A stretch of 64,000 bases of DNA, taken from positions 43,360,001 to 43,424,000 of the forward strand of contig CP086569.2 in the NCBI GenBank assembly GCA_009914755.4. Reading direction: 5' to 3'. Positions 50,262 through 64,000 of this stretch are shown here, in pieces (the first letter of the stretch is position 1; each line of letters begins with the position of its first letter). The stretch is from the human T2T-CHM13v2.0 reference genome, Homo sapiens. The notes beneath the pieces were generated by a model. The model saw only the letters and a list, made by a program, of their open reading frames with translations. It did no database searches and was not told the origin of the DNA. The position numbers were made by a program, and so were the translations under genes.

Positions 50262-50559
50262 TTTTTTTTTAGACAGAATCTTGTCCTGTTGCACAGGGTG
50301 GGGTACAATGGCGCCATCTTTGCTCACTGCAACTTCTGCCTCACGGGTCCAAGCGATTGTCCTCCCTCAGCCTCCCAGGTAGCTGGGACTACACCACACT
50401 GGGACTACACCAGCTGCCACCATGCCTAGCTAATTTTTTGGATTTTTAGTAGTGACAGCGTTTCACTGTATTGGCCAGGATGGTCTTGATCTCTTCACCT
50501 TGTAATCCCCTTGCCTTGGCCTCCAAATTTGCTGGGATTACAGGCCTGAGCCAAGATCC
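50262..50559 (-). mobile_element. Alu SINE, copy 21 (domain-II variants)
   Basis: Same Alu sequence at the unit period. Confidence 0.92.
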
Positions 50560-52681
50560 ATATTTTTTAAATGAAAAAAAATTTCAAAGGTACTCTGCTT
50601 GGTACAATAATCAAATGTATAAACTGAGGAATAAAACATAACCATGAAACCTACTTATAACTGCATATGGAAAATACAGAGGATAATTTTTTAAATAACA
50701 TATTTTGAAAGCCTTAACTAGTAATTTGAAGAGCTGGCATTTGAAAGGCCAGTATGAATATACATTCAAATCAGCAACACAGGTTCCCCATGAGAAAAAG
50801 CAAACACAGGGAAAATAAAAACACAAAGGTTCAATCTCTTCTGACCTTTGAAAGACACAGCACAGACAGTGGTCCTTAGGACGAAGAGCAGGAGACCCCT
50901 AATTCCGTCACCATGGCGATAGGGCATAAACATTGCTGGGTGAGGGCACAATCCACATTGTGAGGTCCAACTGCTGCCAGGAAGACAGGAGTGCTTTTAC
51001 ATAGACCGAAAGGTCATTGAAGGCTCAGAGTTTTGTTTCAAGAACTGAATCCCAAGCCCACACGTTATTAGGCTGCGCTTCTTAAAACAAGTTATGAGAT
51101 GGGAAAAAGGGCACCCACAAACATACGTATACATTATGTATATAATAATATACAGTGTCATATATTTAATATATATAACCTATGTATAATATTGTTTTAC
51201 ATCCTGCATCTTATGTTATATATATTGTATAAAATATAATAATTGATAATATATAAGTTTTATAATTATACAATATGACATATAGTATATATTATAATTT
51301 ATGACATATATAATATATGTTATATGTCATATATAGAATATATTATACGGTTAATATACGTATTAAATATAAATTACACATTATATATATTATATATAAT
51401 ATATCTGTTATATATAATACCCATTATGCATAATATATATATTATGTCTATGTTATATATAGTATAAAACAACATATAATAATATATAATTGTATATATA
51501 AAATGCGACATATAATATATATTATATTTTATAACATATGTAATATATATTATATATTATATATAATACGTTGTATGTATAATACCTATATTAAATATAT
51601 ATTATATGACTATGTTATTAATTACATGTCACATGTGTTATATATTATATATTTTACATAGAATATACCGGTTACATACAATATATACTATGTTACCTAT
51701 AATGTATAATTTATTACATGTAAAATAAAGAATGCAATATATTATGTATAATTTATAATATACCATATGTGGAATGTGATATATATAACATATAATATAT
51801 GATATATGATATACAGTATATGATATATAACATACAATATATGATTCCTAATATATATTGTATACAATATATATTTTATGATATGTATTCTATATGTTTT
51901 ATATTCTGTTATATATAACTATTTGAAATTATATATAACTGTATAATATTTTATGTAAATATGTAATATAATATATATAACTATATAATATATTACATAT
52001 AACTATATATTATGTTATATATACTTTTATAACATAATTTACATAAAATATCATAATGTAATATATATTATATTATTTCATATTACATAATATATATTAC
52101 ATATCACCCAATATAACTAACATACATAATATTATAATATAGATTATATTGTGTTATATTAAATATCATATATATCATGTATCATATATTCTATAATATA
52201 TATTACACATTATATAATATGTATGTTGTCTATTATGTGATATATATAACTATATATATAATTATATTTTTATACATATAACTAGATAAACATGTAATTC
52301 TACATATTTTCATTTATAATATGTAGAATTATATAATCATATATAATTATTTATATTCTATAAAAAATTTTATCATTATATAAATTATAATATATAAAAA
52401 TTATAATATGTACTACAAATATATATATTATATATCATATATGATATAGTACCTTTGTTATATATCATAATACATATAAATGTGTATTATGTTATCTATA
52501 ATTATATAATTTCATATATAAGATGTATAATATGTATCATATATTATATATGTTATGTAATATATATAGTATATATAAGATGACACAGGATAAATATTAT
52601 ATACTATGACATATAAAATATATCAGGTTATATGTTACATATAAGGCATAGCACATAACATGTAATATATATCATATATAA

Positions 52682-52979
52682 TTTTTTTTTAGACAGAATC
52701 TTGTCCTGTTGCACAGGGTGGGGTACAATGGCGCCATCTTTGCTCACTGCAACTTCTGCCTCACGGGTCCAAGCGATTGTCCTCCCTCAGCCTCCCAGGT
52801 AGCTGGGACTACACCACACTGGGAATACACCAGCTGCCACCATGCCTAGCTAATTTTTTGGATTTTTAGTAGTGACAGCGTTTCACTGTATTGGCCAGGA
52901 TGGTCTTGATCTCTTCACCTTGTGATCCCCTTGCCTTGGCCTCCAAATTTGCTGGGATTACAGGCCTGAGCCAAGATCC
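52682..52979 (-). mobile_element. Alu SINE, copy 22 (domain-II variants plus 'gggaatacacc')
   Basis: Same Alu sequence at the unit period. Confidence 0.92.
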
Positions 52980-60238: not shown

Positions 60239-62360
60239 ATATTTTTTAAATGAAAAAAAATTTCAAAGGTACTCTGCTTGGTACAATAATCAAATGTATA
60301 AACTGAGGAATAAAACATAACCATGAAACCTACTTATAACTGCATATGGAAAATACAGAGGATAATTTTTTAAATAACATATTTTGAAAGCCTTAACTAG
60401 TAATTTGAAGAGTTGGCATTTGAAAGGCCAGTATGAATATACCTTCAAATCAGCAACACAGGTTCCCCATGAGAAAAAGCAAACACAGGGAAAATAAAAA
60501 CACAAAGGTTCAATCTCTTTTGACCTTTGAAAGACACAGCACAGACAGTGGTCCTTAGGACGAAGAGCAGGAGACCCCTAATTCCGTCACCATGGCGATA
60601 GGGCATAAACATTGCTGGGTGAGGGCACAATCCACATTGTGAGGTCCAACTGCTGCCAGGAAGACAGGAGTGCTTTTACATAGACCGAAAGGTCATTGAA
60701 GGCTCAGAGTTTTGTTTCAAGAACTGAATCCCAAGCCCACACGTTATTAGGCTGCGCTTCTTAAAACAAGTTATGAGATGGGAAAAAGGGCACCCACAAA
60801 CATACGTATACATTATGTATATAATAATATACAGTATCATATATATAATATATATAACCTATGTATAATATTGTTTTACATCCTGCATCTTATGTTATAT
60901 ATATTGTATAAAATATAATAATTGATAATATATAAGATTTATAATTATACAATATGACATATAGTATATATTATAATTTATGACATATATAATATATGTT
61001 ATATATCATATGTAGAATATATTATACGGTTAATATACGTATTAAATATAAATTATACATTATATATATTATATATAATATATCTGTTATATATAATACA
61101 CATTATGCATAATATATATATTATGTCTATGTTATATATAGTATAAAACAACATATAATAATGTATAATTGTATATATAAAATGCGACATATAATATATA
61201 TTATATTTTATAACATATGTAATATATACTATATATTATATATAATACGTTGTATGTATAATACCTATATTAAATATATATTATATGACTATGTTATTAA
61301 TTACATGTCACATGTGTTATATATTATACATTTTACATAGAATATACCGGTTACATACAATATATACTATGTTACCTATAATGTGTAATTTATTACATGT
61401 AAAATAAAGAATGCAATATATTATGTATAATTTATAATATACAATATGTGGAATGTGATATATATAACATATAATATATGATATATGATATACAGTATAT
61501 GATATATAACATACAATATATGATTCCTAATATATATGGTATACAATATATATTTTATGATATGTATTCTATATGTTTTATATTCTGTTATATATAACTA
61601 TTTGAAATTATATATAACTGTATAATATTTTATGTAAATATGTAATATAATATATATAACTATATAATATATTATAGATAACTATATATTATGTTATATA
61701 TACTTTTATAACATAATTTACATAAAATATCATAATATAATATATATTATATTATTTCATATTACATAATATATATTACATATCACCCAATATAACTAAC
61801 ATACATAATATTATAATATAGATTATATTGTGTTATATTAAATATCATATATATCATGTATCATATATTCTATAATATATATTACACATTATATAATATG
61901 TATGTTGTCTATTATGTGATATATATAACTATATATATAATTATATTTTTATACATATAACTAGATAAACATGTAATTCTACATATTTTCATTTATAATA
62001 TGTAGAATTATATAATCATATATAATTATTTATATTCTATAAAAAATTTTATCATTATATAAATTATAATATATAAAAATTATAATATGTACTACAAATA
62101 TATATATTATATATCATATATGATATAGTACCTTTGTTATATATCATAATACATATAAATGTGTATTATGTTATCTATAATTATATAATTTCATATATAA
62201 GATGTATAATATGTATCATATATTATATATGTTATGTAATATATATAGTATATATAAGATGACACAGGATAAATATTATATACTATGACATATAAAATAT
62301 ATCAGGTTATATGTTACATATAAGGCATAGCACATAACATGTAATATGTATCATATATAA

Positions 62361-62658
62361 TTTTTTTTTAGACAGAATCTTGTCCTGTTGCACAGGGTGG
62401 GGTACAATGGCGCCATCTTTGCTCACTGCAACTTCTGCCTCATGGGTCCAAGCGATTGTCCTCCCTCAGCCTCCCAGGTAGCTGGGACTACACCACACTG
62501 GGACTACACCAGCTGCCACCATGCCTAGCTAATTTTTTGTATTTTTAGTAGTGACAATGTTTCACTGTATTGGCCAGGATGGTCTTGATCTCTTTACCTT
62601 GTGATCCCCTTGCCTTGGCCTCCAAATTTGCTGGGATTACAGGCCTGAGCCAAGATCC
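62361..62658 (-). mobile_element. Alu SINE, copy 26 (domain-II variants plus 'ctcatgggtcc', 'ttttgtatttttag', private 'gacaatgtttcac')
   Basis: Same Alu sequence at the unit period. Matches copy 23 apart from the private changes. Confidence 0.92.
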
Positions 62659-64000
62659 ATATTTTTTAAATGAAAAAGAATTTCAAAGGTACTCTGCTTG
62701 GTACAATAATCAAATGTATAAACTGAGGAATAAAACATAACCATGAAACCTACTTATAACTGCATATGGAAAATACAGAGGATAATTTTTTAAATAACAT
62801 ATTTTGAAAGCCTTAACTAGTAATTTGAAGAGTTGGCATTTGAAAGGCCAGTATGAATATACCTTCAAAGCAGCAACACAGGTTCCCCATGAGAAAAAGC
62901 AAACACAGGGAAAATAAAAACACAAAGGTTCAATCTCTTCTGACCTTTGAAAGACACAGCACAGACAGTGGTCCTTAGGACGAAGAGCAGGAGACCCCTA
63001 ATTCCGTCACCATGGCGATAGGGCATAAACATTGCTGGGTGAGGGCACAATCCACATTGTGAGGTCCAACTGCTGCCAGGAAGACAGGAGTGCTTTTACA
63101 TAGACCGAAAGGTCATTGAAGGCTGAGAGTTTTGTTTCAAGAACTGAATCCCAAGCCCACACGTTATTAGGCTGCGCTTCTTAAAACAAGTTATGAGATG
63201 GGAAAAAGGGCACCCACAAACATACGTATACATTATGTATATAATAATATACAGTATCATATATATAATATATATAACCTATGTATAATATTGTTTTACA
63301 TCCTGCATCTTATGTTATATATGTTGTATAAAATATAATAATTGATAATATATAAGTTTTATAATTATACAATATGACATATAGTATATATTATAATTTA
63401 TGACATATATAATATATGTTATATATCATATGTAGAATATATTATACGGTTAATATACGTATTAAATATAAATTATACATTATATATATTATATATAATA
63501 TATCTGTTATATATAATACCCATTATGCATAATATATATATTATGTCTATGTTATATATAGTATAAAACAACATATAATAATATATAATTGTATATATAA
63601 AATGCGACAGATAATATATATTATATTTTATAACATATGTAATATATATTATATATTATATATAATACGTTGTATGTATAATACCTATATTAAATATATA
63701 TTATATGACTATGTTATTAATTACATGTCACATGTGTTATATATTATATATTTTACATAGAATATACCGGTTACATACAATATATACTATGTTACCTATA
63801 ATGTGTAATTTATTACATGTAAAATAAAGAATGCAATATATTATGTATAATTTATAATATACAATATGTGGAATGTGATATATATAACATATAATATATG
63901 ATATATGATATACAGTATATGATATATAACATACAATATATGATTCCTAATATATATGGTATACAATATATATTTTATGATATGTATTCTATATGTTTTA

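What the first reader, a model, noticed from the sequence alone, without database searches (positions are those of the whole stretch)
50262..64000. Second 3-unit HOR (~7.26 kb) at the 3' end, nested inside other duplications
Alu markers ('gggaatacacc'; 'ctcatgggtcc'+'ttttgtatttttag') and AT-part markers repeat with an offset of exactly 3 units (52821 to 60080 is 7259 bp). Superimposed on this are a 1-unit duplication (P,P at 48.8k and 51.2k) and a 4-unit-offset similarity (46.6-47.8k matching 56.3-57.5k). The final unit (63.2-64k) has begun to diverge (R' differs from R at 'aatacgttgtatg', 'tatatgactatg', 'atattatatatttt'). This indicates several successive rounds of unequal exchange, with a different period preferred in different parts of the array (3 here, 3 at 26-41k, 2 at 18-25k).
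Basis: seen in the sequence. Interest (0 to 1): 0.55.

Follow-up and report, generated by a model that had tools for sequence, protein, structure and literature searches.

The report
Nested duplications inside DYZ2 satellite
This is an ordinary stretch of the human 2.4-kb DYZ2 (HSat1B) satellite, most likely from the Y-chromosome long-arm heterochromatin, in which a three-unit 7.26-kb block was duplicated once by unequal exchange and then altered by two later rearrangements; it is a clean example of a known process, not a new kind of element.

Summary
Units three apart are nearly identical: U21/U24 differ at 1 site and U22/U25 at 4, against 21-31 sites between unlike neighbours. The third pair fails. 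U23/U26 differ at 18 sites in 1,632 bp, as much as any unlike pair, and share only their first 172-188 bp.

The array is DYZ2/HSat1B, the classic 2,420-bp human satellite I unit (292-bp truncated Alu, 566-bp HSATI part, 1,562-bp 86%-AT part).

Three nested events explain the pattern at base-pair level.
- E1: an in-register unequal exchange three units apart, with its junction at 55282-55297 in the Alu. It made the "R" unit U23 a chimera of S-head and X-tail. That is why U23's tail matches 46578-47849, and why U26, the parental S unit, does not match U23.
- E2: a later one-unit duplication with its junction at 49837-49958.
- E3: an out-of-register join at 46577|46578, with 2-bp microhomology, that truncates copy 1.

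So this is a single two-copy tandem duplication, not an established higher-order repeat. "R' has begun to diverge" has the polarity reversed. Unequal sister-chromatid exchange in DYZ2 arrays is already described. Interest is low.

The parts
44617..46577 (.). U19a: head of an older, upstream-domain DYZ2 unit (unit positions 1-1963)
   Evidence: Head-register tiles match units up to about 46560. It carries the upstream-domain alleles at positions 9, 33, 65, 537, 552, 996, 1264 and 1366.
46577..46578 (.). E3 junction: an out-of-register join of unit position 1963 to unit position 1148. It gives the 3,233-bp unit U19 and marks the boundary between the 1.3-1.6% and 0.5-0.7% divergence domains.
   Evidence: Base-by-base comparison of both registers shows only a 2-bp TA microhomology at the join. 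The register shift of 813/814 bp is seen.
46578..47849 (.). X-tail (U19b): the surviving part of the first unit of duplicated block copy 1 (unit positions 1148-2420)
   Evidence: It shares all U23 tail variants (1300T, 1337T, 1378G, 1399T, 1495C, 1508del, 1759C, 1904A, 2110C). It differs from U23 at 6 sites in 1,273 bp.
47850..50269 (.). U20: extra P unit, a chimera of P head (positions 1 to about 2050) and X tail
   Evidence: It is identical to U21 over positions 1-2109 except position 1677. Its tail alleles 2110C, 2331C and 2400G equal those of U19b.
49837..49958 (.). E2 crossover interval (unit positions 1988-2109, AT-rich part). The duplicated 2,420-bp blocks are 47417-49836 and 49837-52256.
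   Evidence: Exact run 47417-49525 = 49837-51945. There is 1 mismatch in 2,420 bp. The flanking informative sites are 1987 and 2110.
50270..52689 (.). U21: P unit of copy 1
   Evidence: 1 difference from U24 (position 235).
50262..50553 (-). Example of the 5'-truncated Alu present once per unit
   Evidence: It aligns to a recalled AluY consensus at positions 13-289 with 81% identity and a 15-bp internal duplication. Sub-threshold Rfam hits to the Alu-derived mir-1268 fall on the minus strand.
52690..55109 (.). U22: Q unit of copy 1
   Evidence: It shares 8 derived alleles with U25 only, and has 4 private differences.
55110..57528 (.). U23 ('R'): chimera of S-head (positions 1-172/188) and X-tail. 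It holds the novel junction created by the 7,259-bp duplication.
   Evidence: Head alleles 75T and 172T are shared only with U26. Tail alleles are shared only with U19b.
55282..55297 (.). E1 crossover interval (unit positions 173-188, inside the Alu)
   Evidence: The last allele shared with U26 is at 55281. The first U23/U26 difference is at 55298 / 62557.
55290..62548 (.). Copy 2 of the 7,259-bp block (X-tail, P, Q, S-head). Boundaries are nominal within the 16-bp junction interval. Copy 1 is 46578-55289, truncated at the left and carrying the extra P.
   Evidence: The offset-7,259 diagonal has 5 mismatches between 50300 and 55100. Overall there are 11 differences in 6,293 comparable bp.
57529..59948 (.). 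U24: P unit of copy 2
59949..62368 (.). U25: Q unit of copy 2
62369..64000 (.).
   Evidence: It has 7 private alleles and 0 of U23's tail alleles. It differs at 17-21 sites from every other unit of the domain.

Best explanation
The window is a tandem array of the human satellite DYZ2 (HSat1B, 'satellite I'). Its location is most probably Yq12. The window runs from older, more diverged units at the 5' end to younger, consensus-like units at the 3' end.

The period-3 pattern at 46.6-62.6 kb is the footprint of one in-register but unit-shifted homologous exchange. On the Y this would be an unequal sister-chromatid exchange.

E1. The ancestral order was X-P-Q-S. An exchange took place between unit S on one chromatid and unit X, three units upstream, on the other. 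It fell at unit positions 173-188 inside the Alu.

Between E1 and E2, two substitutions arose in copy 1: 235 G>A in P and 2331 T>C in X.

E2. A second unequal exchange one unit apart, at unit positions 1988-2109 in the AT-rich part, produced the extra chimeric P/X unit U20.

E3. After E1, a non-homologous (2-bp microhomology) out-of-register join at 46577|46578 removed the head of X and an unknown amount upstream. It abutted the block to an older domain.

Shown: the similarity topology, the chimeric units, the junction intervals and the order of events. Inferred: that the exchanges were crossovers between sister chromatids rather than another duplication mechanism, and the chromosomal location.
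For: Identity as DYZ2/HSat1B:
- The modal unit is 2,420 bp.
- Each unit has a 292-bp 5'-truncated Alu at 81% identity to AluY, a 566-bp middle part, and a 1,562-bp part of 86% AT.
- The 'ACATACG' motif sits at the HSATI/AT junction in 24 of 26 units.
- GC is 24.25% and there is 1 CpG per 143 bp.
- The published descriptions give a 2,420-bp consensus, Alu 290 bp, HSATI 566 bp, >85% AT, 24% GC, 1 CpG per 150 bp and the same ACATACG motif.
- Exact 28/29-mers occur in short contigs of 17 unrelated bacterial assemblies and in 24 metagenome contigs, most at about 98-99.6% identity. This is the HSat1B contamination described by Rhie et al..
- A 2,420-bp consensus built from those contigs lies 0.54-0.74% from U20-U26 and 1.9-2.3% from U0-U8.

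E1:
- U21/U24 differ at 1 site and U22/U25 at 4, against 21-31 for unlike units.
- U23 shares 75T and 172T only with U26. It shares its 9 tail alleles only with U19b.
- These alleles are essentially absent from 41 independent loci, where the ancestral k-mers occur 13-45 times. The sharing is therefore by local descent.
- One exchange accounts for three things: the abrupt end of identity at positions 173-188, the '4-unit' match, and the non-identity of U26.

E2: the 2,109-bp exact run at offset 2,420, and U20 tail = U19b tail together with U20 head = U21 head.

Order: the extra P is in copy 1 only. 235A is shared by U20 and U21 but not U24, and 2331C by U19b and U20 but not U23. U23 has normal length, so E3 came after E1.

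Literature: unequal exchange and sister-chromatid exchange in Yq12, and local expansion and contraction of DYZ2 units, are reported.
Against: - The differences between the two copies are heterogeneous: X-tail 6 in 1,273 bp, P 1 in 2,420, Q 4 in 2,420 (chi-square p=0.013).
- They are also strongly asymmetric. Ten derived alleles lie in copy 1 and one change lies in copy 2 (binomial two-sided p=0.012). A single clock-like duplication does not predict this. Extra short conversion events, a more complex history or chance would be needed.
- The head of X is deleted, so the reciprocal side of the E1 junction cannot be inspected.
- Only the first 1,632 bp of U26 are in the window.
- No labelled DYZ2 reference sequence was available in the tools, so identity rests on published descriptions and on contaminant contigs.
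- No DYZ1 flank is in the window, so Y versus acrocentric short arm is not decided.
- Read-level support for the assembly cannot be checked.
Confidence: 0.8

Rival explanations
1. A true higher-order repeat. A P-Q-R trimer has become the amplifying and homogenising unit of this part of the array, as in alpha-satellite HORs, and R' is a copy that is drifting away.
For: There is a period-3 similarity with two markers shared by U23 and U26. The P and Q pairs are near-identical.
Against: - There are only two copies.
- The left end is cut at 46577|46578.
- On the right, U26 differs from U23 at 18 sites in 1,632 bp, as much as from P or Q.
- U26 holds the consensus state where U23 is derived, which is the opposite of a decaying copy.
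- P and Q differ from their copies by 0.04-0.17%, so a sister R copy of the same age could not have reached 1.1%.
Confidence: 0.04
2. Long-tract gene conversion without a change in copy number. A tract of about 7.3 kb (X-tail, P, Q, S-head) was copied over three pre-existing, different units.
For: It would give the same chimeric boundaries and the same similarity matrix. Gene conversion is documented in Yq12 de novo variants. Hallast et al. say it cannot be ruled out.
Against: Conversion tracts reported on the Y are short (median 542 bp in palindromes). A tract of more than 7 kb, followed by a second exact 2.42-kb one, is much less parsimonious than two unit-shifted exchanges. The extra P makes the local pattern P-P-Q versus P-Q, which is what an insertion of one unit predicts.
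Confidence: 0.07
3. Replication-based duplication, such as template switching, break-induced replication or replication slippage between units, rather than a reciprocal crossover.
For: The end product is indistinguishable in sequence. The AT-rich part is full of imperfect inverted repeats (88 pairs per unit), and HSat1B is enriched in inverted and mirror repeats. The 10:1 excess of derived alleles in one copy could hint at an error-prone synthesis step. E3 has only 2-bp microhomology.
Against: The E1 and E2 junctions are perfectly in register within long homology (16-bp and 122-bp intervals with no added or lost bases), as expected for homologous recombination. Two of the ten derived alleles (235A, 2331C) demonstrably arose between E1 and E2, not during E1. 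Known BIR error rates are far too low to give 1.6 changes per kb (my own knowledge).
Confidence: 0.12
4. Assembly artefact: false duplication or mis-joining of near-identical satellite reads.
For: Yq12-type satellites are among the hardest regions to assemble. The out-of-register junction and the asymmetric 'mutations' could be consensus or joining errors.
Against: The copies are not identical (11 differences). Several copy-specific alleles are themselves duplicated by the later event (235A in U20 and U21, 2331C in U19b and U20), which a random error would not do. The three events form a consistent nested history. Unit sizes of 1,275-3,719 bp are reported in validated assemblies.
Confidence: 0.05

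Closest known systems
DYZ2 / HSat1B (human satellite I 2.4-2.5-kb repeat of Yq12, also on acrocentric short arms)
   Same: Unit length is 2,420 bp. The tripartite make-up matches: a 5'-truncated Alu about 20% diverged (~290 bp), a 566-bp HSATI part and a >85% AT part. The ACATACG junction motif, 24% GC and CpG density also match. Units at one end of the window are more diverged than at the other, as reported for array edges. Evolution is by unequal exchange.
   Different: Nothing defining differs. Only 13 of 25 complete units are exactly 2,420 bp, against 93.7% in Yq12 overall, and the 5' units are about 2% from consensus. This suggests a peripheral array or array edge. No DYZ1 flank is in the window.
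Alpha-satellite higher-order repeats
   Same: There is similarity at a multiple of the basic period. Copies of the larger block are far more alike (99.8%) than neighbouring units (about 99%). The origin is unequal exchange.
   Different: Alpha HORs have many homogenised copies and monomers 20-40% diverged. Here there are two copies only, the units are only about 1% diverged, and the block is interrupted by an extra unit and truncated. It is a young tandem segmental duplication inside an array.
[quoted passage not shown]
   Same: Kilobase-scale monomers of about 2.4 kb on the Y show 2-unit and 3-unit periodic similarity.
   Different: It is an unrelated sequence (DAZ gene-internal repeat in AZFc, contig NT_011903, peaks at 2385/4757/7155 bp), not DYZ2. 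Its monomer families differ by more than 3%.
Smith-type unequal crossing-over model of satellite evolution, and the local expansions in Yq12 reported by Rhie 2023 and Hallast 2023
   Same: The exchanges are in register and unit-shifted, they create chimeric junction units and they change copy number. The events are nested and iterative.
   Different: The published cases are described at scales from kilobases to 5 Mb, from dot plots. Here three events are resolved to 2-122-bp junction intervals.

Membership tests
DYZ2 / HSat1B satellite | Tandem unit of about 2.4 kb, consensus and modal length 2,420 bp | tested here: met
   25 complete units. 13 are exactly 2,420 bp, the rest are 2,414-2,421 bp, and one is a 3,233-bp variant. 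The published modal length is 2,420 bp, range 1,275-3,719 bp.
DYZ2 / HSat1B satellite | Tripartite unit: a 5'-truncated ancient Alu (~290 bp, ~20% diverged), an HSATI part (~566 bp) and an extremely AT-rich part (>85% AT) | tested here: met
   The Alu spans 50262-50553 (292 bp). It covers consensus positions 13-289 at 81% identity, using an AluY consensus recalled from memory. The middle part is 566 bp at 61% AT. The AT part is 1,562 bp at 86% AT.
DYZ2 / HSat1B satellite | 'ACATACG' at the HSATI/AT-rich junction, 24% GC, about 1 CpG per 150 bp | tested here: met
   ACATACG is at the junction in 24 of 26 units. GC is 24.25%. There is 1 CpG per 143 bp, against the values.
DYZ2 / HSat1B satellite | Direct sequence identity to an independently labelled DYZ2/HSat1B sequence | tested here: inconclusive
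   No labelled reference is available in the tools, and the consensus was not found in the held supplement. Indirect evidence: 98-99.6% identity to most short contaminant contigs in 17 bacterial assemblies and 24 metagenome contigs. Rhie et al. attribute such contamination to HSat1B and HSat3.
DYZ2 / HSat1B satellite | Location in Yq12 alternating with DYZ1 (HSat3) blocks, or on acrocentric short arms | not testable with these tools
   No DYZ1 or other flank lies in the 64-kb window, and no human reference can be searched. The Y is favoured because HSat1B lies almost entirely on the Y, and because the 3' units are within 0.5-0.7% of the bulk consensus with the Yq12 modal length.
Higher-order repeat (HOR) in the alpha-satellite sense | Units k apart are much more similar than adjacent units | tested here: met
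   Met for two of three unit pairs: 1 and 4 differences against 21-31. The third pair (U23/U26) has 18 in 1,632 bp and is not closer than unlike units.
Higher-order repeat (HOR) in the alpha-satellite sense | Many tandem copies of the multi-unit block, homogenised as a block | tested here: not met
   There are exactly two copies. They are bounded at 46577|46578 and 62541-62556 and interrupted by an extra unit.
Product of unequal homologous exchange (tandem duplication) | A chimeric unit at the novel junction, whose two halves match the units flanking the duplicated block, with the register preserved | tested here: met
   U23 is S-head plus X-tail and U20 is P-head plus X-tail. No bases are gained or lost at either junction.
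Product of unequal homologous exchange (tandem duplication) | Copy-number difference relative to haplotypes lacking the event; a reciprocal deletion product | not testable with these tools
   This needs other human Y or acrocentric assemblies, or pedigree data.

The most novel reading that the evidence does not exclude
The strong asymmetry after the duplication may be real biology rather than chance. Ten derived substitutions lie in copy 1, against one reversion in copy 2. Copy 1 also lies next to a microhomology-mediated, out-of-register junction that abuts an older array domain. This could reflect, for example, an error-prone, break-associated repair or replication process acting on one side of a rearrangement breakpoint in AT-rich HSat1B. 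It could instead reflect directional conversion from the array core that keeps the inner copy 'clean'. Either would give a mechanistic handle on why satellite array edges age while centres stay homogeneous.
Probability: 0.07. Interest if true: 0.4.

Novelty: already known. Interest (0 to 1): 0.12.

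Why it matters
It matters little by itself. DYZ2/HSat1B has been known since the 1980s. Its evolution by unequal (sister-chromatid) exchange, local expansion and contraction, and diverged array edges are described in the T2T-Y and 43-Y-assembly papers.

The modest value here is a base-pair-resolved, internally ordered example with three nested events, two chimeric junction units and one microhomology junction. It also yields private marker alleles that could serve as k-mers to genotype this sub-array across Y assemblies.

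Rough dating, which is inference:
- E1: the copies differ by 0.175%. At DYZ2 SNV rates implied by published data (5 SNVs in 2.23 Mb over ~200 years' divergence; 40 Yq12 de novo SNVs in six father-son pairs with a mean Yq12 of 27 Mb), this is about 0.1-0.16 Myr. At the euchromatic Y rate recalled from memory it is about 1 Myr.
- E2: one difference in 2,420 bp, roughly 25-40 kyr or 0.26 Myr on the same two rates.

The block and the extra P unit could therefore be polymorphic among deep Y lineages.

Tried and rejected
- Self-megablast of 44-64 kb merged everything into two long HSPs and was uninformative. I replaced it with exact-run and per-diagonal mismatch scans.
- The first MAFFT alignment placed the extra 813 bp of U19 as one insert at unit position 1508. 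Tile mapping and a register-by-register comparison put the real junction at 46577|46578.
- The '~2.4 kb monomer 2-mer/3-mer HOR on the Y' paper (PMC3592446) looked like a direct precedent. It concerns the DAZ repeat in AZFc, not DYZ2.
- I searched the Hallast supplement for the DYZ2 consensus sequence or the ACATACG string and did not find them. A search for published DYZ2 primers was unproductive.
- An Rfam scan of three units gave only sub-threshold Alu-derived mir-1268 hits.
- There is no ORF of 90 aa or more in 46-64 kb.
- An inverted-repeat scan shows the E3 tail breakpoint lying at the centre of imperfect AT palindromes. With 88 inverted-repeat pairs per unit this is not distinguishable from coincidence.
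- The long metagenome contigs (L018, L021, L026, L040) are only 93-98% identical, with many indels (noisy long reads). They were not usable as alternative haplotypes.
- None of the 41 loci carries the P, Q, R or S marker sets, so no other haplotype of this exact sub-array was recovered.

Full report
**1. What the window is**

The whole 64-kb window is one tandem array. A 16-mer present once per unit defines 25 complete units plus two partial ones. Unit lengths are 2,420 bp (13 units), 2,414-2,421 bp (11 units) and 3,233 bp (U19).

Each unit has three parts:
- A minus-strand, 5'-truncated Alu. The example is 50262-50553, 292 bp, at 81% identity to an AluY consensus recalled from memory, covering positions 13-289, with a 15-bp internal duplication.
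- A 566-bp moderately AT-rich part.
- A 1,562-bp part of 86% AT.

Overall GC is 24.25%. There is 1 CpG per 143 bp, and 'ACATACG' sits at the junction of the middle and AT-rich parts in 24 of 26 units.

These are the published properties of DYZ2/HSat1B. [quoted passage not shown] Hallast et al. give a 2,420-bp consensus, Alu 290 bp, HSATI 566 bp, the ACATACG motif, 24% GC and 1 CpG per 150 bp.

There is also an indirect sequence check. Exact 28/29-mers from the unit occur in short contigs of 17 unrelated bacterial 'genomes' and in 24 metagenome contigs. Most of these are about 98-99.6% identical to the window. Rhie et al. describe this contamination for HSat1B.

HSat1B lies almost entirely on the Y, so Yq12 is the most likely location. 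An acrocentric short arm is not excluded.

**2. Context within the array**

I built a 2,420-bp 'bulk' consensus from the contaminant contigs. Divergence from it falls along the window:
- U0-U8: 1.9-2.3%.
- U9-U18: 1.3-1.6%.
- U20-U26: 0.54-0.74%.

This matches the published observation that units at array edges, or in peripheral arrays, are older than those in the centre. The finding lies in the youngest domain.

**3. Checking the observation**

All marker positions and the 7,259-bp offset are exact. Differences between units are:
- U21/U24: 1.
- U22/U25: 4.
- U20/U21: 4, and U20/U24: 5.
- Unlike units of the domain: 21-31.

Exact runs of 2,637 bp at offset 7,259 and of 2,109 bp at offset 2,420 exist. 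At 1% background divergence the first has probability about 3e-12.

U23/U26 differ at 18 sites in 1,632 bp, no fewer than U26 against P or Q (17-21).

**4. Polarised variant analysis**

I used the bulk consensus as outgroup.
- P (U20, U21, U24) is defined by 8 derived alleles.
- Q (U22, U25) is defined by 8 derived alleles.
- U23 has 7 'private' alleles.
- U26 has 7 private alleles.
- U23 and U26 share only 75T and 172T.

These alleles are essentially absent from 41 independent DYZ2 loci, where the ancestral k-mers occur 13-45 times. They are therefore local variants, shared by descent.

I re-aligned the second half of the 3,233-bp unit in its own register. From 46578 (unit position 1148) it carries every U23 tail allele: 1300T, 1337T, 1378G, 1399T, 1495C, 1508del, 1759C, 1904A and 2110C. 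It differs from U23 at 6 sites in 1,273 bp.

**5. Reconstruction**

*E1.* The ancestral order was X-P-Q-S. An in-register exchange between S and X, three units apart, fell at unit positions 173-188 (55282-55297, inside the Alu). It gives X-P-Q-[S head/X tail]-P-Q-S. One event explains:
- the P/P and Q/Q near-identity;
- the abrupt end of identity in U26 at 62541-62556;
- the match of U23's tail to 46578-47849;
- why U26 is unlike U23.

*E2.* An exchange one unit apart fell at unit positions 1988-2109 (49837-49958). It duplicated 47417-49836 as 49837-52256, with 1 mismatch. It made U20 a P-head/X-tail chimera.

*E3.* At 46577|46578, unit position 1963 of an older-domain unit is joined to position 1148 of X, with only a TA microhomology. 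This is a non-homologous or microhomology-mediated deletion or join.

*Order.* The extra P is in copy 1 only. 235A (U20, U21, not U24) and 2331C (U19b, U20, not U23) arose between E1 and E2. U23 has normal length, so E3 followed E1.

*Mechanism.* Unequal sister-chromatid exchange is the mechanism already proposed for Yq12. That the events were crossovers, rather than conversion or template switching, is inferred and not shown.

**6. What does not fit**

The two copies differ at 11 sites in 6,293 bp. The differences are uneven by segment: X-tail 6 in 1,273 bp, P 1 in 2,420, Q 4 in 2,420 (p=0.013). They are also very asymmetric, with 10 derived alleles in copy 1 and one reversion in copy 2 (p=0.012). 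Chance, short conversion patches or a more complex history could explain this. I could not decide between them.

**7. Comparison with known systems and verdict**

The array meets every testable defining feature of DYZ2/HSat1B. It does not meet the multi-copy criterion of an HOR.

[quoted passage not shown] That is the unrelated DAZ repeat.

NTRprism work already showed that periodicity varies locally within satellite arrays. Local DYZ2 expansions by unequal exchange are published.

The finding is therefore real, well explained and ordinary. Novelty is 'already known' and interest is about 0.12. The residual value is the base-pair-level history and the marker alleles, which allow a population test in existing Y assemblies.

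Noticed in passing
window 1-64000 (units U0-U26): Divergence from a bulk DYZ2 consensus falls steadily along the window: 1.9-2.3% (U0-U8), 1.3-1.6% (U9-U18) and 0.54-0.74% (U20-U26). The window appears to run from an old array edge toward a young core.
   Followed up: partly
window 44617-47849 (U19), junction 46577|46578: This is a 3,233-bp unit. Unit position 1963 is joined out of register to position 1148 with a 2-bp TA microhomology. The join coincides with the boundary between two divergence domains and two unit-length classes (2,414/2,416 bp versus 2,420 bp).
   Followed up: yes
window 18039-27710 (U8-U11): A two-unit periodicity is real here. U8/U10 differ at 7 sites and share 8 derived alleles. 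U9/U11 share 17. The exact run 18270-19793 equals 23106-24629.
   Followed up: partly
U14/U17 share 5 derived Alu sites and U11/U14/U17 share 2. Mean differences by offset are 12.0 (offset 3), 14.4 (offset 1) and 16.0 (offset 2). The block is mostly one homogeneous family with long exact runs at offsets of 1, 3, 4, 5, 6 and 7 units.
   Followed up: partly
window 46578-62548: Of the 11 differences between the two copies of the 7,259-bp block, 10 are derived alleles in copy 1. The single change in copy 2 is a reversion to consensus (U23 position 2355). Binomial two-sided p=0.012. This is unexplained.
   Followed up: partly
loci L001-L017 (GTDB species-representative bacterial assemblies): Seventeen unrelated bacterial assemblies contain short contigs (382-2,497 bp) of this human satellite, most at 98-99.6% identity (L002 is 94%). 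They include Mycobacterium spp., Bifidobacterium tibiigranuli, Vibrio ouci, Streptomyces kurssanovii, Alcanivorax hongdengensis and Sphingobium terrigena. This is human DNA contamination.
   Followed up: partly
loci L028, L031, L034 (metagenome contigs): These contigs match the unit at only about 88% identity. They may represent a diverged HSat1B subfamily, perhaps acrocentric copies.
   Followed up: no
window 50366-50432, 52786-52852, 55206-55272 (minus strand): There are sub-threshold Rfam hits to mir-1268 (33.9 bits against a gathering score of 83) in every Alu. This reflects the Alu origin of that miRNA family and is not evidence of a gene.
   Followed up: yes
window 62369-64000 (U26): U26 shares two derived alleles with the Q units (1064G, 1437G) but not the four Q alleles lying between them (1152, 1215, 1281, 1381). 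This suggests an older mosaic or a short conversion patch.
   Followed up: no
window 58611-58726 (unit positions ~1083-1198 of U24; same in other units): Overlapping imperfect AT-rich palindromes (I3, I6, I7) are centred at unit positions ~1134-1151. That is where the tail-side breakpoint of the out-of-register junction lies. With 88 inverted-repeat pairs per unit this may be coincidence.
   Followed up: partly
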